From Pelagomonas calceolata (Eukaryota): a stretch of DNA of 64,000 bases. Positions 4,309 to 60,839 of this stretch are shown piece by piece. Both the position numbers and the translations under genes were made by a program. The DNA lies in assembly GCA_918797485.1 (NCBI GenBank), contig CAKKNE010000006.1, positions 1,488,001-1,552,000 on the forward strand, written 5' to 3'. The notes beneath the pieces are model-generated. The model did not search any database. It saw only the letters and a program-made list of their open reading frames with translations, and was not told where the DNA came from. The stretch's first letter is position 1; each line of letters opens with the position of its first letter.

Positions 4309-4330
4309 CTAGCGGCATGTAACACACTAG
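4309..4330 (+). promoter_or_regulatory. CTAG-N14-CTAG upstream motif copy
   Basis: ctagcggcatgtaacacactag between divergent starts 4227 and 4549. Confidence 0.6.
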
Positions 4331-4548
4331 CAAGCACTCAAGGGCCACCTCATCAGGCTCCCAGGCTGCAAAACGCATCGGCATCGGACGCTGGGCCACA
4401 CACGTTCTCTGGACAAGCCCTGCAATCGGCTTCAGGAGCACTTTTGCAGCCCTACGCCAGTCGACGCGCGGGAGGTGCTGCCCGAGACCTCAAGGCATTA
4501 CATACGACGCGTAGGTGCTGCCCGGGCCACTTCAGGGCATTACACCGC

Positions 4549-4908
4549 ATGTATGCGCTGCTTGGCGCCTGCCTCGTCCTCGCCGCGCAAGCATGCGAGG
4601 TCTGCCAGTACAAGCTCTTCGCGGGCGGCTGCCCGGTCGGGCGGCGCAAGGCCAGGGAGCGCTGGGGCGACTGGGTCGTCACCGAGGACGCCTTCGACGA
4701 CGGTGACTGCCGAAACACGTGCTGCGCCGCGAACGAAGACAGTTGCTGCGAGACGGATTTTCACTTTGTCGCCGGCGTCGCCGGGGGCTTGTTTGTGCTC
4801 ATCGCGATCTGCGTCGTGGTCTGCTGCGTCGAGTGTCGGCGGCGGCGCGCGCTCGGGCGCGTCGTGCGGAAGCGGGCGGCGCCTCCGCTCGAAGCCGCGC
4901 GTGTGTAA
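4549..4908 (+). CDS. Small Cys-rich single-pass membrane protein (Shisa/WBP1-like architecture)
   Basis: MYALLGACLVLAAQA signal, Cys-rich ectodomain, TM VAGVAGGLFVLIAICVVV, then CCVECRRRR. Confidence 0.55.
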   Translation: MYALLGACLVLAAQACEVCQYKLFAGGCPVGRRKARERWGDWVVTEDAFDDGDCRNTCCAANEDSCCETDFHFVAGVAGGLFVLIAICVVVCCVECRRRRALGRVVRKRAAPPLEAARV

Positions 4909-4945
4909 GACTTGTACTGTACGATCGACATCTCTTACACATTGA

Positions 4946-6109
4946 TCAGCGCCGCCCGCCGAGGCCCGGCGGCAGGTCTCCCCCGCGCTTCAGGCCCGGC
5001 GGCAGGCTCGGCCCGCTCGCGCGCGGCGGGGGCGGCGGAGGCGGCGGCCGCCTTCTCCTCGCCTGGGGCGGCATCATGCGCGCCGGCGGGCCGCGCGGCG
5101 CGCCGGGCCGCTGCGGGCCGATGCTCGAGCCCTCGCGCACGCCCGGGCCCCGCATCTTGAGGACCGATCCCGGCGCGGGGTAGGGCCGCTGCTGCCAGAG
5201 CGGCCCCGACGCCGTCGAGTCGGCCATGCGCTCGCCCTTGTGGTGGAGCCCGTCCGAGTAGCGGCCGCCGCTCAGGCCGAGCGGGTCGAGGGGGTCGATC
5301 TGGGACTTGTCCCTCTTCTTTTTCTGAGCGGCCGCCAAGGCAGGGTGCGGCTGGGGCCGCGGCTTCGGTCCCTCCGGCCGGCGCGTCGCGCCGTCGCCCG
5401 CATCATTTGCGTGTGTAGGCGGCTCCCACCGCCGTTCCCCGGTCGCGTCCTTGACGTAGTAGACCTGGTTCGACGAGGGATGGACGCGCGAGCTCCAGCC
5501 CGGCGGCAGCGCCACCGGAGCCGTCGGTGTTGCGGACGGCACCATGACCGCCGGCGCTTCCTGCCTCACCAACGACCCGGCCTTGCGTAGTTGCGCCTGC
5601 ACGCCTAGTAACTTGTGCTGCAGCTCCTTGTAGGCCTCGTCCCGTTCTCTACCAGCAACCTGCTTCAGCGTGTTGTCTCGAGTCCTCTCGAGCTGCGACA
5701 TCTTTTCTCGCTTGCGCTTCTCCGCGGCTCGGCCCCGTAAGCAGTCGTCGGGCACGCCGTCGTCGCCCTGCTCCAAGTACGCCAGGGCCTGCGCCCGCTT
5801 CCGCTGCGCGTCGAGCTCCGCCTTGTATTTTTCGTCGGACATGGTCTTGCGCTCGCCGCGCGGGCCGACCACGACATCCCGCTTCACCTTGGGAATGGTC
5901 ACTTGTTTAGGTTTTGGTTGGTTGGACGGCTCGTCCGCAAAACCGGGGTAGTGCTGGCCCGTGTTCTCGGACCAGAGCTTCGCTTGTTTGGTGGGGCGGT
6001 AGTCGCGCGCGTCGACCTCGTCCTGGACCTCCCAAAACTTCCTTCCGGTAGCTTTGGCGAGTCTATCAATGCGCTCGCGGTCCGCCTGGCGGCTCTGGCC
6101 GTTCATCAT
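4946..6109 (-). CDS. PQBP1: Polyglutamine-binding protein 1-like WW-domain splicing factor
   Basis: WW domain LPPGWSSRV...VYYVKDATGERRWEPP and the PQBP1-type C-terminal DPLDP...YSD...ADSTASGPLWQQRPYPAPGSVL. Confidence 0.75.
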   Translation of the reverse strand: MMNGQSRQADRERIDRLAKATGRKFWEVQDEVDARDYRPTKQAKLWSENTGQHYPGFADEPSNQPKPKQVTIPKVKRDVVVGPRGERKTMSDEKYKAELDAQRKRAQALAYLEQGDDGVPDDCLRGRAAEKRKREKMSQLERTRDNTLKQVAGRERDEAYKELQHKLLGVQAQLRKAGSLVRQEAPAVMVPSATPTAPVALPPGWSSRVHPSSNQVYYVKDATGERRWEPPTHANDAGDGATRRPEGPKPRPQPHPALAAAQKKKRDKSQIDPLDPLGLSGGRYSDGLHHKGERMADSTASGPLWQQRPYPAPGSVLKMRGPGVREGSSIGPQRPGAPRGPPARMMPPQARRRRPPPPPPPPRASGPSLPPGLKRGGDLPPGLGGRR

Positions 6110-6362
6110 GGTTTCTTGCTTGTGGCCGGCGCCCTAAAGGGCGCTCGGGCTTCGCGTTTTGTTGGTTGCGTCGCGCGCGCGGCGGCGTATGTGGCGCTCG
6201 AGAGGCGCTCCCTGGTTGTGGCTTTTCGGGAGCCGCGGCGGCGCCGTTGGACGGCGCGGCTGTACTGCGTTGGTTGGGCGCTTGGGCCGCGTCTCTCGAT
6301 CGCTTCGGGGCGGGCGTAACGTGCCACAGCCTTTTTAGTGTGTAAATGTCGGCTGCGTATTC

Positions 6363-6384
6363 CTAGTGTCTTACAGGACGCTAG
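6363..6384 (-). promoter_or_regulatory. CTAG-N14-CTAG upstream motif copy
   Basis: ctagtgtcttacaggacgctag between divergent starts 6109 and 6545. Confidence 0.65.
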
Positions 6385-6544
6385 CAAGCGTGCATGGCAA
6401 AGCTGCCGCAGTAGAGCACCCTGGTTGCTAAAATTGCGCAGGCGTCGCACCTTTCGACATCTCTGAGGCTTGCAAGCGGCGGGAGCACGCCTGAGTGGAC
6501 GTGCGCCAACGTGCAAGCAGTGACCGCGGTGCCGTGGCAGCGCC

Positions 6545-6904
6545 ATGCCGCCGCGCAAGAAAAAAGACGACCCCATGGCTGCTGTGGATGCGCTCCCGCT
6601 CGTCCAGGAGCTCGAAAAGGCCCTCGCGTGCCTCGACGCGGTCGAGAAGGACGTCGACGAGGGCAAGCGCCCGGGCAAGGACATGGACGCCTTCTTCCAG
6701 CAACTGGGCCGCGTCGACGACGCCGCCGCGGCGCTGCCGGAAATGCCCATCCCCCAGGGCGCCCTGGACGACGGCGCGGACCTGGACGTCGTCGCGAGAC
6801 AGGACCTCCGGCGGCAGCTCGACGACCTCGCGGCCGAGGGGCACCGGAAGAAGAACATGAAGACGCTCGCTGATTTGGTTGAGGCGGGCCTTGATAATAC
6901 TTAG
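6545..6904 (+). CDS. Small helical protein, possibly divergent Mediator subunit 10
   Basis: 119-aa ORF with GC3-rich codons. IP...LDDG.D pattern and size recall MED10 (VPLEV..YIDQGRNP); resemblance by eye only. Confidence 0.4.
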   Translation: MPPRKKKDDPMAAVDALPLVQELEKALACLDAVEKDVDEGKRPGKDMDAFFQQLGRVDDAAAALPEMPIPQGALDDGADLDVVARQDLRRQLDDLAAEGHRKKNMKTLADLVEAGLDNT

Positions 6905-8541
6905 AGTTTCCCCAGGGAGAGCGCGTACCACTTGTCGAGGCGCTTGACGAACGACGTCCCGAGCTTCCGCCAGCCCTTCCAGGTCAGGGGCACCTTCGCC
7001 ACGGTCGCCTCATACACGTTGTCCGCGACGGTCACCCAGCCCTTGCCCGTCGTGGGCACCCAGCCTAGCAGACGGTCGTAGGCAGTGTTGAAGCCCCTGA
7101 GCCAGCCGTCCGTCGACGTCGGCACCTTGGCCAGGGTCAGGTCGTAGGCCGCGTGGAGGCCCTCGTTCGCTAATGAGGTGACAGATCCGACGACTGCAGT
7201 CGTTTTCGCGTAGCACGCCCCGGCGGCGGCGGACGTCTTCGCGCACGCCGTGCTGACGGCGGGGCCGGCGTTGCTCGTGATATAGCAAGCACCGGACTTG
7301 ACGCCGCCGACGCAGGAGCTGAGCGCGGGTCCCGCGCCCGCCGCGGCCGCCTTGGCGCCGGCGGCGACGGCGCCGGCGCCGGCCTTGGCGCCGGCGGCGA
7401 CGGCACCGGCGCCGGCCTTGGCGCCACCAACGGCCGCGCCGAGGGCCGGGCCCGCGCCGCTCTTCACGCAAGCGGCGCCCGCGCACGCCTTCGTCGCCAC
7501 GAAGCCGGCACTCGCTTTGGCGCCGGAGGCCACGGCTCCCGCGCCCGCCGCGGTCTTCGCCGCCACAAAGCCGGCACCGGCCTTGACGCCGCCGACCGTC
7601 GCGCCGAGGGCCGGGCCCGCGCCCGCCGCCACCGCGGACACGCCCGCCTTGGCGCCGGAGGCGACGGCGCCGGCGCCCGCGCACGCCTTGGCCGCGACGT
7701 AGCTGCCGCCGGCCTTCGCGCCGCCGACGCAGGCGCCGAGGGCCGGGGCTACCGCGCCCGCACCCGCCTTGGCACCAGAGGCGACCGCGGCCGCGCCCTT
7801 CGTCACACCGGTGGCGACGGCGCCGGCGCCGGCCTTGGCGCCGCCCGCGACGGCCGCGGCGGCCGGGCCCGCCTTGGCGCCGACGGCCGCGACCGCCGGC
7901 CCGACCGCCGCGCGCACCGGCGGCGCCGCGAGCGACACCGCGACGGCGCCGACGGCGAGCGGCACGACGGGGAACGGCCGCTTCTCCGCCTCCTTCGCTT
8001 TGATAGCGGCGGCCTCGCGCGCCGGTTCCGCGTACTTGCCCGTGACGTCGCCTTTGCCGGCGGTCGCCTTCGCCGGCGCGGGGGCCGCCTTCGTCGCCGT
8101 CGGCGCCGCCGCGGCCTTTTCCGCCTTCTTCTCCGCCGCCTTGGCGACGTCCGCGAGCCGGGCGGCCTCGGCGTCGGCCACGCGCTGCGCCTCTTTTTCC
8201 TTCGCCGCCGCGACGTCCTCGAGGCGCTTCTTCTCGGCCGCGGCGACGTCCGCGTCCGTCTTCGCCGCCGGTGCCGATGCTGGCGCCGGTGCGGGCTCCG
8301 GCTTCGGCGCGGGCTTGGGCGCCGGTGCCGGCGCCGGCGCAGGAGTGGTCTTCGCCTTGTCGTCCTTCGTCAGACCCGCAATAAATTGGTCCTGCCAGGC
8401 GTAGATCTTGTCCTGGAGCGTCTCCTTGGCGAAGAGCGGGGCCGCGCGCAGCGGTGCCCGTTGCCGCGGCACGGGCGCGAAGGCCGCCGCGAGGCCTAGC
8501 AGCAGCGCGGCAGCTGTTCCCACTCTTGCCAGCCGTGCCAT
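6901..8541 (-). CDS. Putative plastid-targeted Ala/Gly/Lys-rich repeat protein
   Basis: Signal peptide ending AAA-FAP, basic transit region, TM-like segment, many 11-aa GAKAGAGAVA[A/S/T] repeats and three ~22-aa VP...GW repeats. Confidence 0.65.
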   Translation of the reverse strand: MARLARVGTAAALLLGLAAAFAPVPRQRAPLRAAPLFAKETLQDKIYAWQDQFIAGLTKDDKAKTTPAPAPAPAPKPAPKPEPAPAPASAPAAKTDADVAAAEKKRLEDVAAAKEKEAQRVADAEAARLADVAKAAEKKAEKAAAAPTATKAAPAPAKATAGKGDVTGKYAEPAREAAAIKAKEAEKRPFPVVPLAVGAVAVSLAAPPVRAAVGPAVAAVGAKAGPAAAAVAGGAKAGAGAVATGVTKGAAAVASGAKAGAGAVAPALGACVGGAKAGGSYVAAKACAGAGAVASGAKAGVSAVAAGAGPALGATVGGVKAGAGFVAAKTAAGAGAVASGAKASAGFVATKACAGAACVKSGAGPALGAAVGGAKAGAGAVAAGAKAGAGAVAAGAKAAAAGAGPALSSCVGGVKSGACYITSNAGPAVSTACAKTSAAAGACYAKTTAVVGSVTSLANEGLHAAYDLTLAKVPTSTDGWLRGFNTAYDRLLGWVPTTGKGWVTVADNVYEATVAKVPLTWKGWRKLGTSFVKRLDKWYALSLGKL

Positions 8542-8909
8542 GCTGCTCCTTTTACAAGAAAACTTCGGCAGGGCTTCACACGTGTAATGCGCGGTTACCG
8601 CGGCTGCGCTTGCCCGTACCAGACCGGAGTATGGCACCAGTGTGGGCCAAAAAGCTAGCTTGGCAAAGTCGATGCAAAAAGATAATCTCGCGTCAGGAGC
8701 CGTCGGAGCGCTCGCGAATACCTTTTTCAGGAGTCGCTTCGGCCTTGGTGGCCCAAGAGGCGGCCGCCGCGGTCAGATCGCGGTCACCGCCCGCGCGCCG
8801 TCGACGGAACCCCAAAGCGCTCCGAAGCGCGGCGCTCGGCCCTGCGCGTCGACGAACCCCCCAAAGCGCGGCGCCCCCGCACAGCGATCACGTAACACAA
8901 GACCTACTC

Positions 8910-9392
8910 TTACGGCACGCGGAACGTCTTCCCCTGCTTCCAGAGGTAGTCCAGGTTCCGCCGCTTGACGCGCTTCTTGCCCTTCGTCAGCCACGCCTTC
9001 TGCAACACCGTGATGGACTTCACCAAAGGTGAATACAAGGGCACGTGCCGGCGCATCGGCGTGCCCATCACTCGACAAAACAATTGGACCGACGAGTCCG
9101 CGCCCCGATTGCGCCTTCCTAACACCAGGCCCTTGACCTTTTGGGGTTTTGGCGCGTCCACGTCCACGAGGATCTCCATCTCGATCGCGTCTCCCGCTTT
9201 AAAATCGGGCCACGGCCTATGGACCTTCGCGAGCGCCTCCTTTTGGAGTTGGCCTAGCAATGCGGAGGCCTTGCGCGCGGGCGGCCGCGTGTCCATGGTC
9301 GACGCGCAGGCGCGCTGTGGCCGCGTGGCCGCGCGCGGCGTAGCCGTCGCGGCTGCGCGACGCAGCAGAGGTGCTGCGCGGCGCAGGAGCAT
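8910..9392 (-). CDS. MRPL19: Organellar (likely mitochondrial) ribosomal protein bL19
   Basis: Arg/Ala-rich presequence; PDFKAGDAI, GLVLGRRNRG, PLYSPLVKSITVL, KRVKRRNLDYL. Confidence 0.85.
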   Translation of the reverse strand: MLLRRAAPLLRRAAATATPRAATRPQRACASTMDTRPPARKASALLGQLQKEALAKVHRPWPDFKAGDAIEMEILVDVDAPKPQKVKGLVLGRRNRGADSSVQLFCRVMGTPMRRHVPLYSPLVKSITVLQKAWLTKGKKRVKRRNLDYLWKQGKTFRVP

Positions 9393-9510
9393 GGTGCGCA
9401 GCGATGTCTCAGCTTCCGTTGTTATGAATCGAACAAATGCTACACACACAGAGCTGCTAGCTCGCCGCGAGCTGCCGCGTACGATGCTCAAATGCGGCCA
9501 AAACAGCTCG

Positions 9511-9531
9511 CTAGCGGCAGTAAGACACTAG
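9511..9531 (+). promoter_or_regulatory. CTAG-N13-CTAG upstream motif copy
   Basis: ctagcggcagtaagacactag between divergent starts 9392 and 9676. Confidence 0.65.
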
Positions 9532-9675
9532 CAATTAAGCACGCCAGCTCTAAAACCGTCCAGCGCGGCCCCATTAATAGCTTCTGGTACCATTTTGTTG
9601 GCGCAATACATTACTACACATCGTGCGCCGCTAGCCACAAGGACAGAGACGCCGCCAAAGCGCCAAACACAAAAT

Positions 9676-10584
9676 ATGAGCCTAGGCCTCCTCAGTGCCG
9701 CAAGCAGAATCTGCGACGACGTCAACCTCCTGTGGTCCATCGCCGAGGTCTACAACGAGAGCACACAAAGACCCAGAGCCCACGAGCTGCTGGCCGGCGT
9801 GCTCTACGCGCTGGACAAGGACGCCGCGCCGCCGCCAAAGAAGCGAGTCCAACCACCACCAGTACTGGCGTATGTGGATGAGGACGACGACGAGGCGTTG
9901 TTCGCGAGCGCGCCTCCCCAACAAACCTACGACACGCCCGCACCATCGACCTGGCGCCGGACGCTCGCCGATTGGGCCGCGCGAGCCTGCGACGAACTCG
10001 CCTTGTTCCCGGCGTACCAGCGCGTCGCCTGGCGCACGTCCAGAAGATGCGGTTTGGGTCAAATGGTAGGCATCGTGCCGTACGGTTTGGCACGGTGCGC
10101 GCGCATCGTCATAACGGACGAGCACTGGCTCTCGTCAGCGATCCGGGCGGCCGCGGCCCACCCCTTCGAGCGCGCCGCAATAAAGCTGCTCCAAGGGCGA
10201 GTTTTACCGGTGGAGCCATACCGGGGCTGGCGCGTCTCCATCCTTTTCGCGTGCGTCGAGCGGCGGTCCTCGGTGTTCGCGCCGTGTGTGATGGCGGCGC
10301 GCCTCGCCTGGTTGTGTTCTGAAATTGATGACGGCGCCCCGTTCCGCGGCGAGGCGCTCGTCGCCGCGGCGTGTCAAGCCCTCGCGGGGTCGCTCGTCGA
10401 GCTGCCGCGGGCCGTGGCCTGCGTCTGCGCCGCGCGGCTCGTGCGGCGGGCGTTGTTTGGCGGGTCGCCGGCGCGGCGGGGGCGCGACCGGCGGTTCCGG
10501 AGGCGCCTGCGGCGCGCGCTGGACCGGTCGCGGCCGGCGGCGCCGCGGCCTTTGTCTCAGACGCGAAGGTTCGGCGAGGGCTAG
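9676..10584 (+). CDS. Hypothetical protein
   Basis: ATG at 9676 downstream of the upstream motif; open for about 302 aa; no recognisable domain. Confidence 0.45.
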   Translation: MSLGLLSAASRICDDVNLLWSIAEVYNESTQRPRAHELLAGVLYALDKDAAPPPKKRVQPPPVLAYVDEDDDEALFASAPPQQTYDTPAPSTWRRTLADWAARACDELALFPAYQRVAWRTSRRCGLGQMVGIVPYGLARCARIVITDEHWLSSAIRAAAAHPFERAAIKLLQGRVLPVEPYRGWRVSILFACVERRSSVFAPCVMAARLAWLCSEIDDGAPFRGEALVAAACQALAGSLVELPRAVACVCAARLVRRALFGGSPARRGRDRRFRRRLRRALDRSRPAAPRPLSQTRRFGEG

Positions 10585-10625
10585 TCCTGTTGGTTGTTTA
10601 TTTTATGTATATTATCTCGAAACCT

Positions 10626-11143: not shown

Positions 11144-11421
11144 GTCTTTTGCCTTTTCCAAATAGCCCTGGCTCTGTAAGACTGAAACTGTCCGGCACTG
11201 CTACTCCGTTACGCTATAGTGATGATCGTCCGCCGTGAGGCAGATTGACGATGCTGACTCGCCGGCGCGAGCGCTTAATCGACTGGTGGTTGCCCCGAAA
11301 ACCCGTACCAGCTGGCGGAGGGTTAGGGGGACCCTGCGACGTAATCCGCCTGAGCCTGACTTGATTAGTGAGTGCTCGTATTTACTTTTACGATTCTTAC
11401 TAAACGATCACAGATATACTA

Positions 11422-13196: not shown

Positions 13197-13218
13197 CTAG
13201 CGGCCTGTAAGACACTAG
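13197..13218 (+). promoter_or_regulatory. CTAG-N14-CTAG upstream motif copy (consensus-like)
   Basis: ctagcggcctgtaagacactag, 165 bp upstream of the ZIP start. Confidence 0.65.
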
Positions 13219-13281
13219 CAAAACGAGATTTCACGATGCGACAGCCTGACGCCATCGACGCGGGAATATAGACATCAAACT

Positions 13282-15345: not shown

Positions 15346-15367
15346 CTAGTGTCTTACGGGACGCTAG
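15346..15367 (-). promoter_or_regulatory. CTAG-N14-CTAG upstream motif copy
   Basis: ctagtgtcttacgggacgctag, about 140 bp upstream of ATG 15508. Confidence 0.65.
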
Positions 15368-18214: not shown

Positions 18215-18235
18215 CTAGCGGCGGTAAGTCACTAG
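18215..18235 (+). promoter_or_regulatory. CTAG-N13-CTAG upstream motif copy
   Basis: ctagcggcggtaagtcactag between divergent starts 17948 and 18363. Confidence 0.6.
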
Positions 18236-22657: not shown

Positions 22658-22677
22658 CTAGCGTACATCGACACTAG
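22658..22677 (+). promoter_or_regulatory. Diverged CTAG-N12-CTAG upstream motif copy
   Basis: ctagcgtacatcgacactag between divergent ARPC1 and FKBP. Confidence 0.45.
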
Positions 22678-23697: not shown

Positions 23698-23718
23698 CTA
23701 GCGCCTGTAAGACACTAG
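23698..23718 (+). promoter_or_regulatory. CTAG-N13-CTAG upstream motif copy
   Basis: ctagcgcctgtaagacactag, 67 bp upstream of ATG 23785. Confidence 0.65.
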
Positions 23719-29484: not shown

Positions 29485-29506
29485 CTAGTGTCTTACAGGC
29501 CGCTAG
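29485..29506 (-). promoter_or_regulatory. CTAG-N14-CTAG upstream motif copy (exact reverse complement of 13197-13218)
   Basis: ctagtgtcttacaggccgctag between divergent starts 29178 and 29662. Confidence 0.65.
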
Positions 29507-31574: not shown

Positions 31575-31595
31575 CTAGCGCCTTACAGCCGCTAG
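31575..31595 (-). promoter_or_regulatory. CTAG-N13-CTAG upstream motif copy (second degenerate copy at 31684-31701)
   Basis: ctagcgccttacagccgctag between divergent FBPase and metallophosphoesterase. Confidence 0.55.
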
Positions 31596-41619: not shown

Positions 41620-42124
41620 GTTATTTCTTCTTTCTCAGAATGTTCGGCGCTAAAGTAGATGTCTTGGAATCGGACCGGCAGTCGTCGGAGCGTGGGCGGC
41701 TGCGGCGTAGGTTGTATGTGTAACCTCAGCTCAGCGATGCAGCAGTACGTAGCACAGGCGCAGCGAGGCGCAGCGCTGGTCAGCACAGCAAGCGAGGGTC
41801 ACAAGTACCTTATTGGCCTTGGTGCAAGCCGAGACGAGTTAGCTAGCTCATAGGCCTACTAGGCGCAAGCACTCGTCGTCAAAGCGCAACCCAGGACTCC
41901 ACCCGAGAGCCGTAGACCCGCGGCAGAGATCGCTCGCTCGAGACCAGCATCGACGAGAGGAATCGAAAGCTTCCCAACACAAACTGTGCACCGTGCCAGT
42001 GGATATATAACACGCCGCCCGCCCGCGCGTACACAAAAACCACAGCGCGCGCGCGACGAGCCACGCCACCGCCACAAAAAGCGGGCAGCGCAGGACGCAG
42101 CCCCAACCCAACCAACACCAAAAG

Positions 42125-46899: not shown

Positions 46900-46921
46900 C
46901 TAGCGGCACGTAAGACACTAG
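46900..46921 (+). promoter_or_regulatory. CTAG-N14-CTAG upstream motif copy
   Basis: ctagcggcacgtaagacactag, 156 bp upstream of the Deg start. Confidence 0.65.
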
Positions 46922-49835: not shown

Positions 49836-49856
49836 CTAGCGTGTCAGACACACTAG
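49836..49856 (+). promoter_or_regulatory. Diverged CTAG-N13-CTAG upstream motif copy
   Basis: ctagcgtgtcagacacactag between divergent starts 49619 and 50586, 24 bp from the MITE. Confidence 0.45.
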
Positions 49857-53418: not shown

Positions 53419-54636
53419 TTACACAGCCGCCCCAAAAAGCTCGTCGCTCGTCGCCACGCAGCTCCGCACGTCCGCGCGCGACCCGCGCGGCAGCGCCGAC
53501 GCCGCCGTGTAGAGGCACTCCGCGTCGGGATTCACCAGGACGACGGGCGTCTCCCGTTGTACGACGGCCGCCACGTCCCTCAAATATTCGCACGACGCCG
53601 ACTGCTCGAACGAGATCCCGAGAAATAAAACGAGGTCCGCTCCCCCACAATCGTCCTTCAGACGTTGTAGAGCCTGCGGCCCATCTAATATTCGAGCGTG
53701 CTCGCGGTCGCCGTAGAGCAGCACGCGGAACCGTGTTCGCAGCGGCGGCTCATGATCGAGCGGTCTTTTTTTGGAACCGTTCACTCGCAACGCGTCGCGC
53801 GGCGCGTCCTTGCCGTCGACGGCGTCCCTCCCTCCCCTTATTCGTCTTAACATCTCATCATCTAAAGCGTAGACGTTCCCATTCTCACAATCGACGACCT
53901 CTCGCAACGCGCCGTGCAGCTCGACGGTCGTGCCGTCCGACCCGTCCCATAAAGACGCCCCGGCCTGGGCATGCAAACCGTCGATGTTCAACGTGATATG
54001 CCTCATCAACACCCCGCTTCGCTCGAGATCCACGAGCGCGCGGTGCGTCGGCGTCGGTGTGGCTTTCTGCACCGCGACGGCCAATTCGGCCAGAAACTTC
54101 TGGGCGTCGCGCGGCCGTTCGGAATAGAAGCGCCATCCAAAAAGATCGATGCCTTTTTCCAGTTTATACCTTTTCCGCGCCTTCTCGTAGAGGCCGTCCT
54201 TGCCGCCCACGTACGTCGAGAGGCCGGCGGCGGCCGAGATGCCGCTGCCGCTGACGACGACGACTTTTTTGGCGTTCTTTATCAAATCGGCGGCGGCCGC
54301 GAGCGGCATCGCGTCGTCGAGGCCGCTATCCGTGATGTTCGAGCGGCTGCGGCAGGCCCTCGGCGGACGGCGCGGCGGGGGCGGCGACGGCTTCGGCGGT
54401 GGCGGCGGTGGCGGCGCGGCGACGGGCGGCCGTGCGGTTACGGGCGGAGATACGGTGACGGACGGCGGCTCGGCGACGGGCGCCGGCGGCTCCGGCTTCG
54501 GCGCCGCCTCGGCCGCCTCGGCGACGAGGCGCTCGGCCGTGGCGCGCATCGGCGCGTCGAGGCCGGGCGTCGGCGGGGCCACGGGCGCGGGCTCAGCCGC
54601 GTCTTGCACTAGTTTGGGGGTGTTTTGCTCGGCCAT
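53419..54636 (-). CDS. Sir2-family (sirtuin) NAD-dependent deacylase
   Basis: VVVVSGSGISAAAGL, PTPTHRAL, HITLNIDGLH, VELHG, VLLYGD, LFLGIS. Confidence 0.85.
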   Translation of the reverse strand: MAEQNTPKLVQDAAEPAPVAPPTPGLDAPMRATAERLVAEAAEAAPKPEPPAPVAEPPSVTVSPPVTARPPVAAPPPPPPPKPSPPPPRRPPRACRSRSNITDSGLDDAMPLAAAADLIKNAKKVVVVSGSGISAAAGLSTYVGGKDGLYEKARKRYKLEKGIDLFGWRFYSERPRDAQKFLAELAVAVQKATPTPTHRALVDLERSGVLMRHITLNIDGLHAQAGASLWDGSDGTTVELHGALREVVDCENGNVYALDDEMLRRIRGGRDAVDGKDAPRDALRVNGSKKRPLDHEPPLRTRFRVLLYGDREHARILDGPQALQRLKDDCGGADLVLFLGISFEQSASCEYLRDVAAVVQRETPVVLVNPDAECLYTAASALPRGSRADVRSCVATSDELFGAAV

Positions 54637-54826
54637 TTTGCAGCCGTACGCCTATGCGCAGCAAGGTGCCCTTGCCTGTTTCGGCTCGTGCAGTGCGGTG
54701 CGGCGCCCGTTGACACTTCGCAGCTGTGACAGCGCAAGAGGACGGTAAGGGAATATCGCAGGCTGCTGGTAGCTGACCTCACAAGTGTGGGCTTATCAGT
54801 GCACTGCAAAACTCCCATTTTCCAGC

Positions 54827-54847
54827 CTAGCGGCAGTAAGACACTAG
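54827..54847 (+). promoter_or_regulatory. CTAG-N13-CTAG upstream motif copy (identical to 9511-9531)
   Basis: ctagcggcagtaagacactag between divergent starts 54636 and 55026. Confidence 0.65.
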
Positions 54848-55025
54848 CGCTCGAGCAGCCACGAAGCGCCGAGCTAAACTCGCACCAGGGCAAATCGTCA
54901 CGATCAAGTCCTAAATTCCACCGCCGGCGCGAGCCGATCACGTCTCCTGAGTCGGCGAGCGTTTTATCGAAAAATCTGACCTTCAAAGCTGAGCTCTGCA
55001 CGCGACGACGACGCGCGACACCAGT

Positions 55026-56276
55026 ATGGATCGCCCGACGATGCCCCCGGCCCACCGCGACCTCCCGGACGACGTCACGCCGCCGGGCCACGAGCCCGTC
55101 AAATACGTCGTCGGCCCCGGCGACCTCACGCGCGGCGAGCTGCGGCGATTACTAGCGGACGCCGGCGCCAAGGCCGCGGAGCTGTCGAATTTGAGTAGAG
55201 ATGATTTAGTGTCCGTCGCCAAGGCGCGCAAATTAGAAGGTCTGGAAGTGTCGGGGACGGGCGCCGTCGAAGCCAGAGCCAGGGACTTCCTCGCCGTGTT
55301 CTCGCGCTTAGATAGGACGGTAGCGCTCCCGCCGGGCGCTGAATTAGGATTGGTGCTCGAGCGCGTCGGCGACTGGGCCGTCGTGGCCGAGACGCCCCAA
55401 ACGACGGCTGTTAGAGTAGGTGATGTTTTGAGCGAGGTCGACGGCGTGCCTTGTTTGTTAGAAGCCTATGATGACACGTTTAAGCTCTGTGCGGCCGCGC
55501 GACGGTCTCGAGTCCCGTACACGCTCACGTTCCGGCGCGCCCCGTTCCACAAGGGCTGGCTGCGGAAGAAGTCTCGCGGCCGGTCTGCATCTAGATTCAG
55601 CGGCCTGACGGGCTGGAAGCGGCGCTTTTTTGTATTAAGGAGCGGCAAGCTCACATATTACGAGGCCGAGCCGCCGTCGGCCTCGCCCGGACGGAACGCC
55701 TCGAAACCGAAAGGTTCCTTCTCATTGGCGCGCCAGTGCACGGTGCGCATCCGCGAGACGGACGGCGTGCTCGAACTGGCCTTAACTGCGGCGAACGATA
55801 GGTTAATTGTGCGCGGCGCCGACGCGGGCGACGTGCGGAACTGGGCGGCGCTCTGCACCGTGGCGACGGCCCACGCGACGGGCGGGACGGCCCTGTTGCG
55901 GGACTACGAGCGCGAGCGGCTGGGCGTCGAGCGCAGGGAAGCGGAGCGGCGCGAGCGGCGGCGCCGCGCGAATTTGGAAAGGAGGGAGATGTTCAAGCGC
56001 CAGGCGTCGGAGCGGGCGTCCCTGGTCGCGGCGCAAGCTCGAAGGGACGCGCTGCACTCGTCGACGTCGTCCGAACTGCTCCCGGAGTACAAGTCGGACT
56101 CGCGAGCGATCCCGCCGCCGCCGCTGGACACGCCGCCGTCGCGCGGCTCCTCCTATAGACTCCCCGAGTGCTCGCCGGCGTACGCGGAGCCGCCGCCGCG
56201 TCCGACCCGCGCGACGTCCGCCGAGGAGCTGCGGGAGCGGTTCCGGAACGTGGGCCTCTCGGACCTCTCACCGTAA
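55026..56276 (+). CDS. PDZ-like plus PH-domain protein
   Basis: LGLVLE...VRVGDVLSEVDG; HKGWLRKKS...WKRRFFVLRSGKLTYYE...PKGSFSL...VRNWAA. Confidence 0.75.
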   Translation: MDRPTMPPAHRDLPDDVTPPGHEPVKYVVGPGDLTRGELRRLLADAGAKAAELSNLSRDDLVSVAKARKLEGLEVSGTGAVEARARDFLAVFSRLDRTVALPPGAELGLVLERVGDWAVVAETPQTTAVRVGDVLSEVDGVPCLLEAYDDTFKLCAAARRSRVPYTLTFRRAPFHKGWLRKKSRGRSASRFSGLTGWKRRFFVLRSGKLTYYEAEPPSASPGRNASKPKGSFSLARQCTVRIRETDGVLELALTAANDRLIVRGADAGDVRNWAALCTVATAHATGGTALLRDYERERLGVERREAERRERRRRANLERREMFKRQASERASLVAAQARRDALHSSTSSELLPEYKSDSRAIPPPPLDTPPSRGSSYRLPECSPAYAEPPPRPTRATSAEELRERFRNVGLSDLSP

Positions 56277-56317
56277 GATCACTACAAACACCGATCTATC
56301 ACCGTAAAATTACAAAA

Positions 56318-56662
56318 CTAGGGCGCGGGCGCGTAGTCCCGGTTGCACGGGCAGCACCGCTTCGCCCACGACCCCGACCAGGCGCAGCACTTCGCGAGCC
56401 AGCTCCGGTCGCACTTCTCGCAGCCGCAGCAGTCGACGACGTACGGCCAGTCGTCGCCCTCCCACCAGCAGCCCTCTCCTCGAATAACGTCCGCGCGGAA
56501 GGCTTCATCAATGTTGCGCTCGTCGTATTTGGAGACGGAATTCGGCGCGCGGTCCCGGCCGGTCGTGAATCCATTGTTGTCCGGGTAGGGCCGCCGGGGC
56601 AGCGGCACGGACCAGTCCGCGTTGACGGAGGCGAGCGTCGCGAGGAGCGCGAGGCCTCGCAT
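56318..56662 (-). CDS. Small secreted Cys/Trp-rich peptide precursor
   Basis: Signal MRGLALLATLASVNA; 10 Cys in the last ~50 aa. Confidence 0.6.
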   Translation of the reverse strand: MRGLALLATLASVNADWSVPLPRRPYPDNNGFTTGRDRAPNSVSKYDERNIDEAFRADVIRGEGCWWEGDDWPYVVDCCGCEKCDRSWLAKCCAWSGSWAKRCCPCNRDYAPAP

Positions 56663-56872
56663 GATCTAGCGTTGTCGCGGCTTGCCTCGCGTCGACAGCG
56701 TCGCCGCGGCGCTCACAAAAAGATAAAGCTGGGAGCACTCAGAGCTCTCTACCGCACAGATCGTTGTCTAACTAAAGCGAGCTGTCGTGCTACCAAGTGA
56801 TAGTCAACTGCACGCTTTCAGAGCCTTCATTAATCCGTAGATGGCTGCTACGCTTGCTTGCCGGGGCTGCTG

Positions 56873-56893
56873 CTAGTGCCTTACTACGCTAAG
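56873..56893 (-). promoter_or_regulatory. Diverged upstream motif copy
   Basis: ctagtgccttactacgctaag between divergent starts 56662 and 56972. Confidence 0.45.
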
Positions 56894-56971
56894 CAGGGCT
56901 GGGTCAACGCATCAGAGCAACGGCGCGGGGGGCAGCCTACGAATTGGTCGAGGCAGCCACCAGAAACAAAC

Positions 56972-58630
56972 ATGACCGAGCCGCACGAAGACGACGACCG
57001 CGAACGGACGGCGGCGCTGCTCGCGTCGGTCCGCGCGTCGATTCAGGCCGAGCGCGCCGCTCGCGAGGAGGCGACGGCGGAGCCGCCGGCGGGCCTCGCG
57101 GAGCTGCTGCGGCCGCCGGGCACGCCGCGGCGGCGAAGGGCCCAGCTGCAGCGCGAGTGGGAGGCGCGCGGCGCGGCGCGGCAGGCGGCGTCGACGCGCA
57201 CGGCCCGCGCCGCGGCCGAGGCGCAGCAGGCCTGGGGCGCCTCCTCCTTCGCCGACGTGCTGGCGGACCGCGGCTACCGCGCGCCGCGGCCGACGCGCGC
57301 CGTGTCGCCCGTCGCGTCGCCGCCGCGCGTCCGCCGGCCCGCGCCGGCCGACGCGTTCGCCGGCGAGTCCCTCGAGGCGACGCTGGCGTCGGGCCGCGGC
57401 CGGAGCCGGCGGCGGCCCGGCAGCAACGAAACGAGGCCGCAGCCGGCGCCGTCGCCCGTGCGCCACAGCCACGAGCTGTCTGAGGGCCTCGCGCACCGCC
57501 CCGCGGCGTCGTACGACTGGGGCGGCGGGCTCGCGGACGTCCTGCGGCCAGTTGGTCCGGCGCCCCGGCGGCTCGCACCGACGGAGCCACTTCCACCACG
57601 GCGCCGCGCGCCGGCGTCGCCGGTGGAATCGAGCGATGCCGCGTGGGGCGGCGGTCTGGCGGACGTCTTGCGGCCCGGCGGGTCGGCGCCACGGCGCACG
57701 ACGGCGACTGAGCCACTGCCACGGCGCCGCGCGCCGGCGTCGCCGGTGGAAGTCGTTGACACCTGGGGCGGCGGTCTGGCGGACGTGCTCCCCGCGCGGG
57801 GCCGCGCCACGACACGGCGGCGCCCACCGCCGCAGCGGCAGTCGCCGCCGCCGCCGCCCTGCCGCCGGTCGCCCTCGCCGCCGCCGCCGCAACCGGAACC
57901 ACCCTCACCATCGGGCAACGCCGACGCCATGCTCGCCGCGCAGCTCGGCATGGAGGAGGCCGCCCGCGCGGAGCCGCGCCCGGCGCCGCGCCGCGCGACG
58001 GAGCGCGCGCGCGCCGAGGCCGCGTTCGCCGGCGGCCTCGCGGACGCGCTCCCGCCGCGGCAGGAGCGGCGCCGCGCGGGGCCCGACCCCGCCTACGCGC
58101 CCGTGCGCCGGCCGCGCAACGTCGTCGCGGCGGGATCGCTCGGCGACGCCTTCCCGGCGCGCGCGGCGCCGGCGCCGCAGCCGCGCTACCCGCCGCCGCC
58201 GCGGCCGAGCGAGCGCGCCGTCGCGCAATCCGCGCGGCCCCGCCCCGAGCCCCGGTCTGTGCTCGCGGGGCTCGCGCTCCTGGGCGGCGCGCTCCCGGCC
58301 AACTTCTCCCAGGCCGACGCGCTGCCCGACAGCGCCCTCACGTACGACGCGCTCCTGGCGTTGGATCGGCCGCCGGAGCCGTCGCAGGCCCAGCGCCGCG
58401 CCAAGAAGGCCGCGGCCGCGCGGGCGGTCGAAACGACGGTCCATCGGAAGGGCGCCGAGCCGTGCGAGTGCTGCATCTGCCTCGACGAGTTTCATGATAG
58501 GGAGCGCCTCTCCAAACTTCGGTGCGGCCACGTGTTCCACAGCGCCTGCATCAAGAAGTGGCTCGTCCACGACCTGCGCTGCCCGACGTGCCGGACCGAC
58601 GCGCTGGGGGACGATGCGCCCGGAGGCTAA
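56972..58630 (+). CDS. RING-H2 E3 ubiquitin ligase with repeated WGGGLADVL motifs
   Basis: LTYDALLALD; CCICLDEF...LRCGHVFHSACIKKWL...CPTCR. Confidence 0.85.
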   Translation: MTEPHEDDDRERTAALLASVRASIQAERAAREEATAEPPAGLAELLRPPGTPRRRRAQLQREWEARGAARQAASTRTARAAAEAQQAWGASSFADVLADRGYRAPRPTRAVSPVASPPRVRRPAPADAFAGESLEATLASGRGRSRRRPGSNETRPQPAPSPVRHSHELSEGLAHRPAASYDWGGGLADVLRPVGPAPRRLAPTEPLPPRRRAPASPVESSDAAWGGGLADVLRPGGSAPRRTTATEPLPRRRAPASPVEVVDTWGGGLADVLPARGRATTRRRPPPQRQSPPPPPCRRSPSPPPPQPEPPSPSGNADAMLAAQLGMEEAARAEPRPAPRRATERARAEAAFAGGLADALPPRQERRRAGPDPAYAPVRRPRNVVAAGSLGDAFPARAAPAPQPRYPPPPRPSERAVAQSARPRPEPRSVLAGLALLGGALPANFSQADALPDSALTYDALLALDRPPEPSQAQRRAKKAAAARAVETTVHRKGAEPCECCICLDEFHDRERLSKLRCGHVFHSACIKKWLVHDLRCPTCRTDALGDDAPGG

Positions 58631-58646
58631 CCATGCTTTGTTTTAC

Positions 58647-59711
58647 TTACTGGCTCGGCGGCCGTCGAGGGCGCGCGGACCAGGATACTGGGCCCTGCTG
58701 GCCAGGCGACGGCACGATTTCTCTGGCATACGCGGCCACTCGACTTGGGTCGAGGGCCGCGGAGGCGCCGACGACGCCGCAGCACGCCGCGCCGTACGCG
58801 CAGCCCATCTTTAGTCCGATCGAAAGGTTGACCACTCCGGGCGGGTCTCTCGCGAAGGCCGTGAGGAAACCGGCGGCGAACGCGTCACCAGCGCCCGTGG
58901 CGTCGAGAAGAGCGCCCGGCGCTAGTGTTGGCGCGTTCGACTTGACCTGCTCGTTTTCGAGCCCCCAGACAATTGCTCCCCGCGCGCCATGCGTGGTGAC
59001 GACGCAGCGCGTGTTGCCGGCATCCAAAAGATCCAGAGGAGCCTGCGAAAGTCCCGTCCCGGCGAGATTCTCCACCTCGGCTTCCGAACAAATCAGCACG
59101 CCCGGCGCGGTGCCGGCGGCGACCGAGAGCTCGCAGATGCCGTCCCAGCGCTCGTCGGCGTCCCATTGCGGGTTCAAGGACGACGAGCCGCCGGCCTCGC
59201 GCACGGCCCGGAACAATTCTCCGACGCGCGCGCGCACGGCCGGCATGTTGTAGTACCCCGCGACGTGGACGTGGCCACCGCGCGCGCCGACCTCGCGCGC
59301 GCGCTCGATGTCCGCGTCGGATAATCCAGCGACGGCCACCGCGCCCCGATGCGTGGCGAAGGCTCTGTCCGACTGGCCAGATAAGACAATACAAACGCCC
59401 GTCGCCGCGCCCGCCGGCGCCGCGAGCGGCACAACCGCCACACCCGCGTGCGCCGCCGCGGACCGCAGCTTCGCACCCGCGTCGTCGTCGCCGAGGGCGC
59501 AGCGCAGCTCGACGCGCCGGCCCGCGCGCGCGAGGTGGCACGCCGTGTTCAGGCCGCCGCCGCCCGCGAGGAATTCGATCGGCCGCGGCACGAGCTCGTC
59601 CGCGTCCCAGCGCGGCAGCTGCGCGAGGCCGCCGCACTGCACGTCCAGGAACGCGTCTCCGATGACGAGGAACTCGGGCACGGGCAGCGTGATGGCCGTC
59701 TGGGCGGCCAT
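58647..59711 (-). CDS. PfkB/ribokinase-family carbohydrate kinase
   Basis: AGGGGLNTACHLARAG, LGDDDAG, VVTTHGARGA, LDATGAGDAFAAGF. Confidence 0.9.
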   Translation of the reverse strand: MAAQTAITLPVPEFLVIGDAFLDVQCGGLAQLPRWDADELVPRPIEFLAGGGGLNTACHLARAGRRVELRCALGDDDAGAKLRSAAAHAGVAVVPLAAPAGAATGVCIVLSGQSDRAFATHRGAVAVAGLSDADIERAREVGARGGHVHVAGYYNMPAVRARVGELFRAVREAGGSSSLNPQWDADERWDGICELSVAAGTAPGVLICSEAEVENLAGTGLSQAPLDLLDAGNTRCVVTTHGARGAIVWGLENEQVKSNAPTLAPGALLDATGAGDAFAAGFLTAFARDPPGVVNLSIGLKMGCAYGAACCGVVGASAALDPSRVAAYAREIVPSPGQQGPVSWSARPRRPPSQ

Positions 59712-60080
59712 GCTCTCCGGGCCGCGGGAGAGCACGACCTGTAGAGCTGCTTTCTGAGGATGCAGCGGTCTCGGCTGTGCGAGACAGTAAAGGAGAAGTT
59801 GTAAACACGAGCAGTGCGGTCCACAGTGGCTCCCACGGGACCTGGCACGGGTGTTTGAGCTTGGCTTGTGACGGGTTTTTCTGTCTTGGAGCAAAGCTCC
59901 GTTCTGCCGAGGCGTGGCGCGCGGAGGACTCGGCCACCGCTCCCGACGACGCCTCTATTTTTCCGGGCCTCTCAGCGCCCTCAACGCAGAGGAGCTGCTC
60001 CGCAAGCAGCCAAGCCGACGCGACCGGCAGCCAGTCACTCGGGCAGCCTCAACGCCGCCGCCGCGTGACCACAGACAACC

Positions 60081-60797
60081 ATGGGCGCCGAGGGGGAGCA
60101 AGCCCCCGAGGAGGAGCAAGCTCTGGTGACAGGCAGACCCACGACCATCGTCTACAGTGGAGACTGGCCGCCCGAACAGGCGCCGCGAGGCTTATTTAAG
60201 AGGTACGAGGTCCGGGGACGCGTCTGCGAGGTGATACCGCATATCCTGTTCCTGCGAAAGGACGACGCGTCGGCCGAGTTCATACATGGCCACTACAAGC
60301 GAGCACATGCCACGCGCGACCGCTTCCAAAGGGTTGTGGCGGCGATTCGGATCGAGTTCGATCCGCCGGGGGAAGGGGACAACCTCAAGGACCAGGAGCG
60401 CGAGGAGCTGCGGTCCTTGGAGCGGTTGGGGGGCGCCCAATCTAGAATAGAGGGCCACGGCGAAGACGGCGAGCTGTGGTTGTATATCCCACAAAAGAGA
60501 TTGGATGCCCACGATCCGTTTGGGGACACGGTCGCCGACGCGCTGGTCGAGGGCGTGATTGTTAATTGCACGTGCGTCATCTCGACAGCGCCGTTCATCA
60601 ACACGATCGACATCAAACGAGAAACGGAGGAGCCGGACGCCCTCGGCATCGTCGAGGCGCCGGCGCCGGCGCCGGCCGAGGACGAGAGCGACGCGTCGTC
60701 GGATTCGGCGTCGTACATCCAGCCGAGCCCGCGCGACCTGGCGCTGCCGTCGTACATGTCCGGCACGGTGACGAAGAACGGCGTCGACATGTACTAA
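60081..60797 (+). CDS. Hypothetical protein
   Basis: 238-aa ATG ORF with ordinary globular composition, divergent from PfkB. Confidence 0.55.
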   Translation: MGAEGEQAPEEEQALVTGRPTTIVYSGDWPPEQAPRGLFKRYEVRGRVCEVIPHILFLRKDDASAEFIHGHYKRAHATRDRFQRVVAAIRIEFDPPGEGDNLKDQEREELRSLERLGGAQSRIEGHGEDGELWLYIPQKRLDAHDPFGDTVADALVEGVIVNCTCVISTAPFINTIDIKRETEEPDALGIVEAPAPAPAEDESDASSDSASYIQPSPRDLALPSYMSGTVTKNGVDMY

Positions 60798-60817
60798 GTA
60801 TATATAGGAAAGGTGCG

Positions 60818-60839
60818 CTAGCGGCTTGCAAGACACTAG
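60818..60839 (+). promoter_or_regulatory. CTAG-N14-CTAG upstream motif copy
   Basis: ctagcggcttgcaagacactag, 177 bp upstream of ATG 61016. Confidence 0.6.

What the first reader, a model, noticed from the sequence alone, without database searches (positions are those of the whole stretch)
4309..60839. Recurrent bipartite CTAG-N(12-14)-CTAG element upstream of many genes
Seen: consensus (G)CTAGCGGCCTGTAAGACACTAG(CAA). Close copies are at 4309, 6363, 9511, 13197, 15346, 18215, 23698, 29485, 31575, 46900, 54827 and 60818; diverged copies at 22658, 49836 and 56873; spacing-only copies at 31684, 40166 and 41843. 13197 and 29485 are exact reverse complements, and 9511 and 54827 are identical. Every copy is intergenic and about 65-300 bp from a start codon, in either orientation, often one copy per head-to-head pair. 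I saw none in CDS or in convergent gaps. The adjacent genes are functionally unrelated (ribosome, ESCRT, FBPase, protease, sirtuin), so this looks like a general rather than pathway-specific signal. Inference: a long core/bidirectional promoter or nucleosome-organising site bound by a dedicated factor, with two palindromic CTAG half-sites around an asymmetric GTAAGACA core. An alternative is a domesticated micro-transposon with a CTAG duplication. I do not recognise it as a described promoter element.
Basis: partly seen in the sequence, partly recalled or inferred. Interest (0 to 1): 0.92.

Follow-up and report, generated by a model that had tools for sequence, protein, structure and literature searches.

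The report
Genome-wide promoter anchor in pelagophyte alga
A 27-letter DNA signal sits just upstream of transcript starts in about half of the promoter gaps of this stretch of a marine alga's genome, recurs at over a hundred unrelated places in related ocean DNA, and likely marks the landing site of an unidentified general protein that organises promoters.

Summary
The element is real. The window holds 17 CTAG-N13/14-CTAG pairs against 0.7 expected; 14 are copies of the element, 3 belong to a MITE. Consensus: aG-CTAGCG-N3/4-GTAAGACACTAG-CAAgc. A metagenome scan gave 123 further sites with unrelated flanks. None lay in predicted coding DNA; of 59 with both neighbours called, 57 were in divergent or tandem gaps. 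Eighteen held-out copies avoided coding DNA and convergent gaps. Stranded RNA reads from one sample show 5' ends 11-44 bp outside the element at 7 of 14 copies covered, on both sides at 6363. Orientation relative to the gene is free, and the spacer tolerates indels between orthologous loci. It is not an obligate bidirectional promoter: several sides are silent. A transposon relic is unlikely. Best reading (0.6): the site of a yeast-GRF-like general factor that holds promoters open; binding and chromatin are untested, and a nucleosome-phasing test was inconclusive. The host is a pelagophyte, likely Pelagomonas calceolata (inferred). Ten paper searches found no description. New variant of a known kind.

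The parts
4309..4330 (+). Element, strong, N14, divergent gap (PDZ protein | unknown)
   Evidence: 36 bits; 5' end pile at 4374, 44 bp to the right
6363..6384 (-). Element, strong, N14, divergent gap (WW protein | unknown)
   Evidence: 37.5 bits; 5' end piles on both sides: 6326-6351 (12-37 bp left) and 6395-6409 (11-25 bp right)
9511..9531 (+). Element, strong, N13, divergent gap (ribosomal L19 | unknown)
   Evidence: 42 bits; no 5' pile among the rows shown
13197..13218 (+). Element, strong, N14, tandem gap (upstream of ZIP transporter, downstream of SufE)
   Evidence: 42 bits; no antisense depth into SufE; no 5' pile among the rows shown
15346..15367 (-). Element, strong, N14, tandem gap (DUF2854 then BTB protein)
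   Evidence: 40.5 bits; upstream 3' ends at 15281-15292, 5' pile at 15405, 38 bp to the right
18215..18235 (+). Element, strong, N13, divergent gap
   Evidence: 39 bits; 5' pile at 18276, 41 bp to the right
23698..23718 (+). Element, strong, N13, tandem gap (FKBP then MYND protein)
   Evidence: 39 bits; 5' piles at 23750-23753, 32-35 bp to the right
29485..29506 (-). Element, strong, N14, divergent gap (unknown | Snf7/CHMP6)
   Evidence: 39 bits; not covered by the read lays
31575..31595 (-). Element, strong, N13, divergent gap (FBPase | metallophosphoesterase)
   Evidence: 35 bits; not covered by the read lays
46900..46921 (+). Element, strong, N14, tandem gap (upstream of DegP-like protease, downstream of SBP_bac_5 gene)
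   Evidence: 39 bits; 3' ends of the upstream gene at 46990-47075; same-strand depth falls from about 5000 to about 30 between neighbouring 667-bp bins
54827..54847 (+). Element, strong, N13, divergent gap (sirtuin | PH protein)
   Evidence: 32 bits; no sense reads over the 5' part of the PH gene
60818..60839 (+). Element, strong, N14, tandem gap, 21 bp after a stop codon
   Evidence: 39 bits; no antisense depth
56873..56892 (-). Element, degenerate, N12, divergent gap (unknown | RING protein)
   Evidence: 22 bits; 5' pile at 56847, 26 bp to the left; RING side depth under 1
49836..49856 (+). Element, degenerate, N13, divergent gap, followed by a MITE
   Evidence: 15 bits; 5' pile at 50398, beyond the MITE
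41843..41862 (.). Spacing-only CTAG-N12-CTAG, doubtful copy
   Evidence: Gap scores -10 bits, yet a 5' pile lies at 41808-41809, 34-35 bp to the left
22658..22677 (+). Weak CTAG-N12-CTAG, doubtful copy
   Evidence: Gap scores 6 bits
40166..40187 (+). Weak CTAG-N14-CTAG, doubtful copy
   Evidence: Gap scores 6 bits
31684..31701 (-). Spacing-only CTAG-N10-CTAG beside the strong copy at 31575, doubtful copy
   Evidence: Sequence; not among the hits above 8 bits
49881..50370 (.). MITE-like insertion with 17-bp terminal inverted repeats, a 6-bp flanking direct repeat and internal 17-bp tandem units; not part of the element
   Evidence: Sequence; accounts for 3 of the 17 CTAG pairs

Best explanation
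The element is a 21-22 bp CTAG-to-CTAG core (about 27 bp with flanks) that lies in promoter-side gaps in either orientation, just outside transcript 5' ends, and is likely the binding site of an abundant sequence-specific general regulatory factor that would hold the promoter open and let initiation occur 10-45 bp beyond it. Shown: position, breadth over unrelated genes, free orientation, a spacer of 12-15 bases, and 5' ends beside it at 7 of 14 copies covered by reads. Inferred: a protein with two separately anchored contacts, one on GCTAGCG and one on TAAGACACTAGCA, joined flexibly enough to accept a one-base change in spacing. Also inferred: that it excludes nucleosomes, as Reb1, Abf1 and Rap1 do in yeast, and serves one or both neighbours depending on local initiator sequence and other regulators. 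It is permissive rather than a sufficient activator, since some sides are silent.
For: Enrichment 17 vs 0.7. 123 unique exact-pattern sites in 119 metagenome loci; information is confined to -2..+5 around the core, and the middle 4-5 bases take dozens of forms. A gene HMM, checked on the second half of the window, placed 0 of 123 in coding DNA. Of 59 with both neighbours called, 30 were divergent, 27 tandem and 2 convergent (p 0.002 against the window's 16.5% convergent length); median distance to the coding start was 185 and 181 bp on the two sides. Held-out test: a matrix trained only on the window found 18 non-seed copies in 75 loci, 0 in 179 kb coding and 0 in 53 convergent gaps; strong copies were in 8 of 43 promoter gaps (Fisher p 0.001); 0 hits in 4 shuffles. 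5' piles lie 11-44 bp outside the outer CTAG on 8 sides of 7 copies (p 3e-5 against uniform placement between element and ATG, computed on those 8 sides only). No orientation bias in tandem gaps (17 vs 10, p 0.25). In three homologous locus pairs the element is 86-95% identical while five of the six 50-bp flanks are 44-60% (sixth 72%; random 44%), two with a spacer indel; a fourth pair has it at the same place in opposite orientation. Neighbouring genes are unrelated. Element-less promoter gaps are enriched in another motif, AAACCCG (8 of 39 vs 2 of 77, p 0.002, found post hoc). GRF functions: 10.1101/331793 and PMC5052057 (abstracts).
Against: No binding or chromatin data. Nucleosome-scale periodicity aligned on the element is weak: best period 175-190 bp for CG, GC and SS dinucleotides, p 0.02-0.27 over three ranges and four dinucleotide classes, not reproduced in random halves. 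The RNA is ordinary poly(A) sequencing from one sample. Only 44 of 72 and 35 of 71 pile rows were shown, 7 of 14 covered copies showed no adjacent pile, and six piles (7269, 9190, 16153, 23538, 55664, 55984) lie inside genes, so a pile is not always a start. One of the 7 copies with a pile (41843) does not match the matrix. At 49836 a MITE separates the element from the 5' pile by 542 bp and the gene is still expressed. 11 of 25 promoter gaps in the window score under 12 bits, including that of the most highly expressed gene laid. Reads with loose ends show the element inside poly(A) RNA from other loci, so it is no strict boundary. Homologous pairs were both retrieved by the pattern, so losses cannot be seen.
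Confidence: 0.6

Rival explanations
1. A true core-promoter element that directly recruits the pre-initiation complex at a set distance, like a PSE/USE bound by SNAPc or a TATA substitute.
For: Six of 8 sides have their furthest or only 5' pile 32-44 bp from the outer CTAG, the reach expected of a factor just upstream of TBP (own knowledge). No fixed TATA-like word was found on start sides.
Against: Orientation is free. Distances spread over 11-44 bp. Starts occur on both sides at 6363 and on neither visible side at other copies. The start at 50398 stays with its local sequence 542 bp away. PMC8287931 (passages) reports conserved USEs in Blastocystis and Proteromonas but not in the other stramenopiles analysed; pelagophytes are not named in its main text.
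Confidence: 0.2
2. A site for replication or chromosome architecture (origin licensing, cohesin or condensin loading, insulator) that lies in promoter gaps because they are open.
For: Long, orientation-free, intergenic and not needed for expression of every gene. At 46900 depth falls about 150-fold just before it.
Against: One copy per 4.6 kb in the window is much denser than typical origins (own knowledge). Near-absence from convergent gaps and closeness to 5' ends tie it to starts, not to intergenic DNA as such.
Confidence: 0.1
3. A relic of a tiny transposon with a duplicated CTAG target, or an excision footprint.
For: Two CTAGs in direct repeat. The joined flanks would read GCTAGC, a palindromic target. 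The genome has MITEs and introner-like introns.
Against: The 13-14 bases between the CTAGs have no inverted termini. Homology stops at -2/+5 in 123 sites. Variation is concentrated in the middle rather than spread evenly (the latter partly circular, as the matrix chose the copies). Copies avoid convergent gaps and persist at homologous places while flanks decay.
Confidence: 0.05
4. A DNA hairpin or cruciform, or an RNA element, acting through structure.
For: The arms GCTAGYG and CRCTAGC are an imperfect inverted repeat; one homologous pair has the element inverted.
Against: Predicted DNA hairpins are weak, -1.2 to -5.0 kcal/mol. The unpaired TAAGA is conserved. Where 5' ends were seen they exclude the element from the mRNA. 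No Rfam match in the window or in 20 loci.
Confidence: 0.05

Closest known systems
Yeast general regulatory factor sites (Reb1, Abf1, Rap1)
   Same: Sequence-specific sites at promoters of many unrelated genes that control start-site fidelity and pervasive transcription (10.1101/331793 abstract; PMC9481977 short abstract; PMC5052057 abstract). Abf1 sites are bipartite (recalled).
   Different: No sequence likeness to their motifs (recalled, not compared by tool). Longer, pseudo-palindromic, with a variable spacer. One motif covers 14 of 25 promoter gaps in the window. Factor unknown and nucleosome depletion not shown.
Vertebrate M4 / SBS element (THAP11, ZNF143)
   Same: Bipartite core-promoter-associated element conserved across species (PMC5006282 abstract).
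   Different: Different sequence; 520 copies in human promoters against an estimated several thousand here; two unrelated modules rather than two CTAG-centred halves.
Apicomplexan AP2 sites (TgAP2XI-5 GCTAGC, AP2-O TAGCTA)
   Same: The left half reads GCTAGC in 82% of 123 sites; TgAP2XI-5 binds palindromic GCTAGC (PMC6631176 passages). P. calceolata has at least 17 AP2-domain genes (PMC9481584 supplement 4, cut when stored).
   Different: Those are 6-bp, stage- or regulon-linked motifs; this is a 27-bp composite at unrelated genes. The match is a lead only.
Oomycete promoter motifs (Phytophthora Inr and stage-specific motifs)
   Same: Stramenopile with compact intergenic regions and many head-to-head pairs (PMC3597505 passages).
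   Different: The Inr spans the start site; the main text has no CTAG or AGACAC string. Its motif table in the supplement was not read.

Membership tests
GRF-type promoter site | One sequence-specific site at promoters of many unrelated genes | tested here: met
   14 of 25 promoter gaps in the window; 123 seed and 18 held-out sites elsewhere; unrelated Pfam families
GRF-type promoter site | Lies a short way upstream of transcript starts, in either orientation | tested here: met
   5' piles 11-44 bp outside at 7 of 14 covered copies, one sample; 17 vs 10 orientation, p 0.25
GRF-type promoter site | Centres a nucleosome-depleted region and phases flanking nucleosomes | tested here: inconclusive
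   Sequence periodicity of 175-190 bp, p 0.02-0.27, not reproduced in halves; no chromatin data
GRF-type promoter site | Limits divergent transcription and read-through | tested here: inconclusive
   No antisense at 4 of 5 strong tandem copies, minus-strand RNA near 23698; element found inside poly(A) reads from other loci
GRF-type promoter site | Bound by an abundant sequence-specific protein | not testable with these tools
   Needs EMSA or pull-down
Reb1, Abf1 or Rap1 site proper | Matches their motifs | not tested
   No motif library on hand; by recall there is no likeness
Directional core-promoter element (TATA, PSE/USE) | Fixed orientation to the start | tested here: not met
   Both orientations upstream of genes; starts on both sides at 6363
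Directional core-promoter element (TATA, PSE/USE) | Fixed distance to the start | tested here: inconclusive
   11-44 bp from RNA-seq piles, not cap-selected
Directional core-promoter element (TATA, PSE/USE) | Present at snRNA promoters (PSE/USE) | not testable with these tools
   No snRNA gene found in the window or in the 20 loci scanned
MITE or DNA transposon with CTAG target duplication | Terminal inverted repeats inside the duplication | tested here: not met
   Inner ends are CG and CA with no inverted match
MITE or DNA transposon with CTAG target duplication | Homology extending into a longer family | tested here: not met
   Information ends at -2/+5 over 123 sites; all-against-all blastn shows no shared flanks apart from homologous genes and intron repeats
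MITE or DNA transposon with CTAG target duplication | Empty orthologous sites with one CTAG | not testable with these tools
   Pairs were selected by the pattern; no whole genome held
Helitron 3' end | Shared upstream body ending in CTRR before a T (recalled) | tested here: not met
   Base after the last CTAG is C in 78% and T in 1%; no upstream homology
ApiAP2 GCTAGC site | GCTAGC core | tested here: met
   Left half in 82% of sites; right half is ACTAGC
ApiAP2 GCTAGC site | Bound by an AP2 domain | not testable with these tools
   AP2 genes exist in P. calceolata; binding untested

The most novel reading that the evidence does not exclude
Probability: 0.3. Interest if true: 0.85.

Novelty: new variant of a known kind. 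Interest (0 to 1): 0.68.

Why it matters
[quoted passage not shown] At the window's density (14 in 64 kb) a 32.4-Mb genome (PMC9481584 section 6) would hold up to about 7,000 copies; the lower share in held-out gaps (8 of 43 strong) points to 3,000-4,000. A single long, information-rich site at that many promoters gives a direct bait to purify the factor and a clean test of whether yeast-style promoter organisers arose independently in stramenopiles. It is also a short promoter part for building expression tools, a start-site prior for gene annotation, and a likely marker for pelagophyte contigs in ocean metagenomes.

Tried and rejected
No whole genome is held, so no genome-wide count was possible. 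Viral collection: 1 match, inside an apparent coding region, read as chance. Prokaryote genomes: 47 matches, most of them one homologous Caulobacteraceae site with a different middle and flanks, treated as coincidence; three metagenome loci of that type (L027, L062, L090) were dropped, and duplicates L012 and L073 were removed. Five marine MAGs with typical copies each hold only one match, so they are contaminating fragments and gave no larger sample. A first gene caller was over-fitted and left most neighbours uncalled; it was replaced by the HMM. A 195-bp CG periodicity came from the step between UTR and coding DNA and an unfair null; with a proper null the signal is inconclusive. Rfam: nothing in the window or in 20 of the loci. 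The two apparent convergent sites were inspected: L031 lies in a 740-bp gap beside telomere-like repeats, L075 may hide a short gene start; both were kept in the counts. No tool named the species. The paper on periodic CG methylation in Aureococcus is not held and is recalled only. Earlier findings of this scan: none. JASPAR and CIS-BP could not be compared. Aureococcus and other named pelagophyte genomes could not be scanned.


Full report
Host. The window is gene-dense eukaryotic DNA of 65% G+C. I annotated 41 genes from ORFs and Pfam. Its FBPase is 65% identical to a cluster containing Aureococcus proteins, 59% to Pelagophyceae CCMP2097 and 58% to Chrysophaeum, and 93-96% to unnamed marine clusters. 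A 211-base intron fits the intron peak near 210 bp reported for Pelagomonas calceolata (PMC9481584 section 6). The host is a pelagophyte, likely that species; no tool named it. No whole genome is held.

Observation. All listed copies are present. CTAG-N13/14-CTAG occurs 17 times against 0.7 expected, maximum 3 in 30 simulations; three pairs belong to a MITE at 49881-50370. A two-block matrix from the 12 close copies scores them 32-42 bits, adds 56873 and 49836, and does not support 22658, 31684, 40166 or 41843. The strong copies sit in 7 divergent and 5 tandem gaps and none in 52 kb of genes. The lack of copies in 1.9 kb of convergent gaps is not significant by itself (p 0.12). Fourteen of the 25 promoter gaps score above 12 bits.

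Breadth. After dropping three bacterial look-alikes and four duplicate sites, 123 unique sites remained, in DNA of about 51-74% G+C. One locus, L072, was confirmed as pelagophyte by protein homology (67% to Chrysophaeum). The others are assigned only by composition and by the fit of a window-trained gene model. Around the core, information extends two bases left and five right and then vanishes, giving aG-CTAGCG-N3/4-GTAAGACACTAG-CAAgc. The viral scan gave 1 match and the prokaryote scan 47, mostly one homologous Caulobacteraceae site plus single matches in marine MAGs.

Position. A seven-state gene HMM recovered the gene layout of the second half of the window when trained on the first. It put 0 of 123 sites in coding DNA. 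Of 59 with both neighbours called, 30 were divergent, 27 tandem and 2 convergent (p 0.002); 64 lacked a call on at least one side. Median distance to the coding start was 185 bp on one side and 181 on the other. As a held-out test, the window-trained matrix found 18 copies that do not match the search pattern in 75 loci: none in 179 kb of coding DNA, none in 53 convergent gaps, strong ones in 8 of 43 promoter gaps (p 0.001), and none in four shuffles. Spacers among 32 matrix-chosen copies were 12 (5), 13 (7), 14 (17) and 15 (3). In tandem gaps orientation was 17 to 10 (p 0.25).

Conservation. Three homologous pairs (L018/L042, L017/L108, L053/L089) keep the element at 86-95% identity, while five of six 50-bp flanks are 44-60% identical and the sixth 72% (random pairs 44%); two differ by a one-base spacer indel. 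L039/L077 carry it about the same distance from an orthologous start in opposite orientation, though the gene on the far side is not clearly orthologous. All pairs were retrieved by the pattern, so this shows persistence, not rate of loss.

RNA. Four raw poly(A) runs of one sample were laid on 4001-24000 and three on 41601-61600; depth by mate shows a stranded library. Piles of 5' ends lie at 4374, 6326-6351, 6395-6409, 15405, 18276, 23750-23753, 41808-41809 and 56847, all 11-44 bp outside the nearest outer CTAG, on 8 sides of 7 of the 14 listed copies covered. At 6363 divergent starts flank the element 44-83 bp apart. Limits: 44 of 72 and 35 of 71 rows were shown, six piles lie inside genes, and 41843 is not a matrix match. 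Against a simple bidirectional promoter: the PH side of 54827 has no sense reads over its 5' part, the RING side of 56873 has depth under 1 while its partner has 84-129, and tandem copies 13197, 15346, 46900 and 60818 show no antisense depth. Element-less promoters start at 14177, 48959-48976 (depth about 5000) and 60004-60014. At 49836 the start lies 542 bp away, beyond the MITE, or 46 bp if the MITE and one duplication are subtracted. Loose-ended reads at 13191-13221 and 15341-15372 show the element inside transcripts of other loci.

Chromatin proxy. Dinucleotide periodicity in genes aligned on the element peaked at 175-190 bp for CG, GC and SS, with p 0.02-0.27, was absent for CG aligned on coding starts, and did not reproduce in halves. 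I treat it as inconclusive; an earlier 195-bp peak was an artefact.

Context motifs. T-tracts are enriched 5-25 bp outward on start sides (19 vs 4.6). GGCAGCC is common in promoter gaps with or without the element and absent from convergent gaps. AAACCCG marks 8 of 39 element-less against 2 of 77 element-bearing promoter gaps (p 0.002, post hoc); its likeness to the Reb1 site is recalled.

Mechanism. The data fit a long site for an abundant factor with two separately anchored contacts, standing between or behind transcription units and leaving the choice of direction to other sequence. That is how yeast general regulatory factors work (abstracts), so it works like a GRF site, with membership unproven: binding and nucleosome depletion are untested. 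Confidence 0.6. A direct core-promoter element (0.2) fails the fixed-orientation test. A replication or architecture site (0.1) does not explain the tie to starts. A transposon relic (0.05) fails on termini and extended homology. A structural element (0.05) has only weak hairpins. The GCTAGC half-site matches that of TgAP2XI-5 (passages) and P. calceolata has at least 17 AP2-domain genes; this is a lead only.

Novelty. Ten paper searches were made. The search for the motif strings listed 30 of 159 papers, none on algae by title. The main text of the P. calceolata genome paper has no occurrence of motif, promoter or intergenic. Its supplements have no CTAG, though one PDF was unreadable and one table was cut. 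PMC13284251 has no occurrence of motif, promoter or upstream. The library lacks most subscription papers, and motif databases could not be compared, so 'undescribed' is bounded by that. Verdict: a real, likely genome-wide promoter-proximal element; new variant of a known kind; interest 0.68.

Noticed in passing
window 11299, 14201 and 14221, 36515, 59872; loci L011, L023, L028, L038, L058: Second promoter motif AAAACCCG / WWACCCG, enriched where the CTAG element is absent (8 of 39 vs 2 of 77 gaps); an inverted pair at 14201/14221 lies 24 bp from the 5' pile at 14177.
   Followed up: partly
window 49881-50370: MITE-like element with 17-bp terminal inverted repeats, a 6-bp flanking duplication and internal 17-bp tandem units that also space CTAGs 13-14 bases apart; inserted between the element at 49836 and the start at 50398.
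   Followed up: partly
window 22677-24000: Minus-strand poly(A) RNA of depth 24-68 over the plus-strand FKBP gene and the start of the MYND gene, exceeding sense depth in most bins; antisense transcript or long ARPC1 leader, unresolved.
   Followed up: no
window 47001-48976: SBP_bac_5 (bacterial-type solute-binding) gene with spliced joints 47921-47987 and 48736-48924, depth about 5000, no CTAG element upstream.
   Followed up: no
window 45745-45885, 51968-52180, 52318-52486: Introner-like introns with repeated inverted ends, one starting with GC; many reads from other copies map here.
   Followed up: no
window 23615-23660 and L031:4160-4209: A short shared repeat of about 45 bp lies just upstream of the element at both places (40 bp and 6 bp away); in L031 it follows telomere-like TTAGGG repeats in a convergent gap.
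   Followed up: partly
L053:790-940 and L089: About 150 bp of apparently non-coding sequence beside the element is 87% identical between two loci; no Rfam match at gathering score.
   Followed up: partly
promoter gaps in window and loci: GGGCAGCC / GGCTGCCC enriched near starts (19 vs 2.4), absent from convergent gaps, no fixed distance to the element.
   Followed up: partly
window 54941-56274: The PH-domain gene is covered by minus-strand RNA, apparently read-through from 56318-56662, with sense starts only internally at 55664 and 55984.
   Followed up: no
L126-L170, L027, L062, L090: About 30 Caulobacteraceae-type records share one conserved site that matches the search pattern by coincidence, with its own conserved flanks; its nature was not examined.
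   Followed up: no
L124, L125, L129, L139, L142, L161: Marine prokaryote MAGs carry short pieces of pelagophyte-like DNA with the element; five were searched whole and hold one match each: likely contamination or chimeric contig ends.
   Followed up: partly
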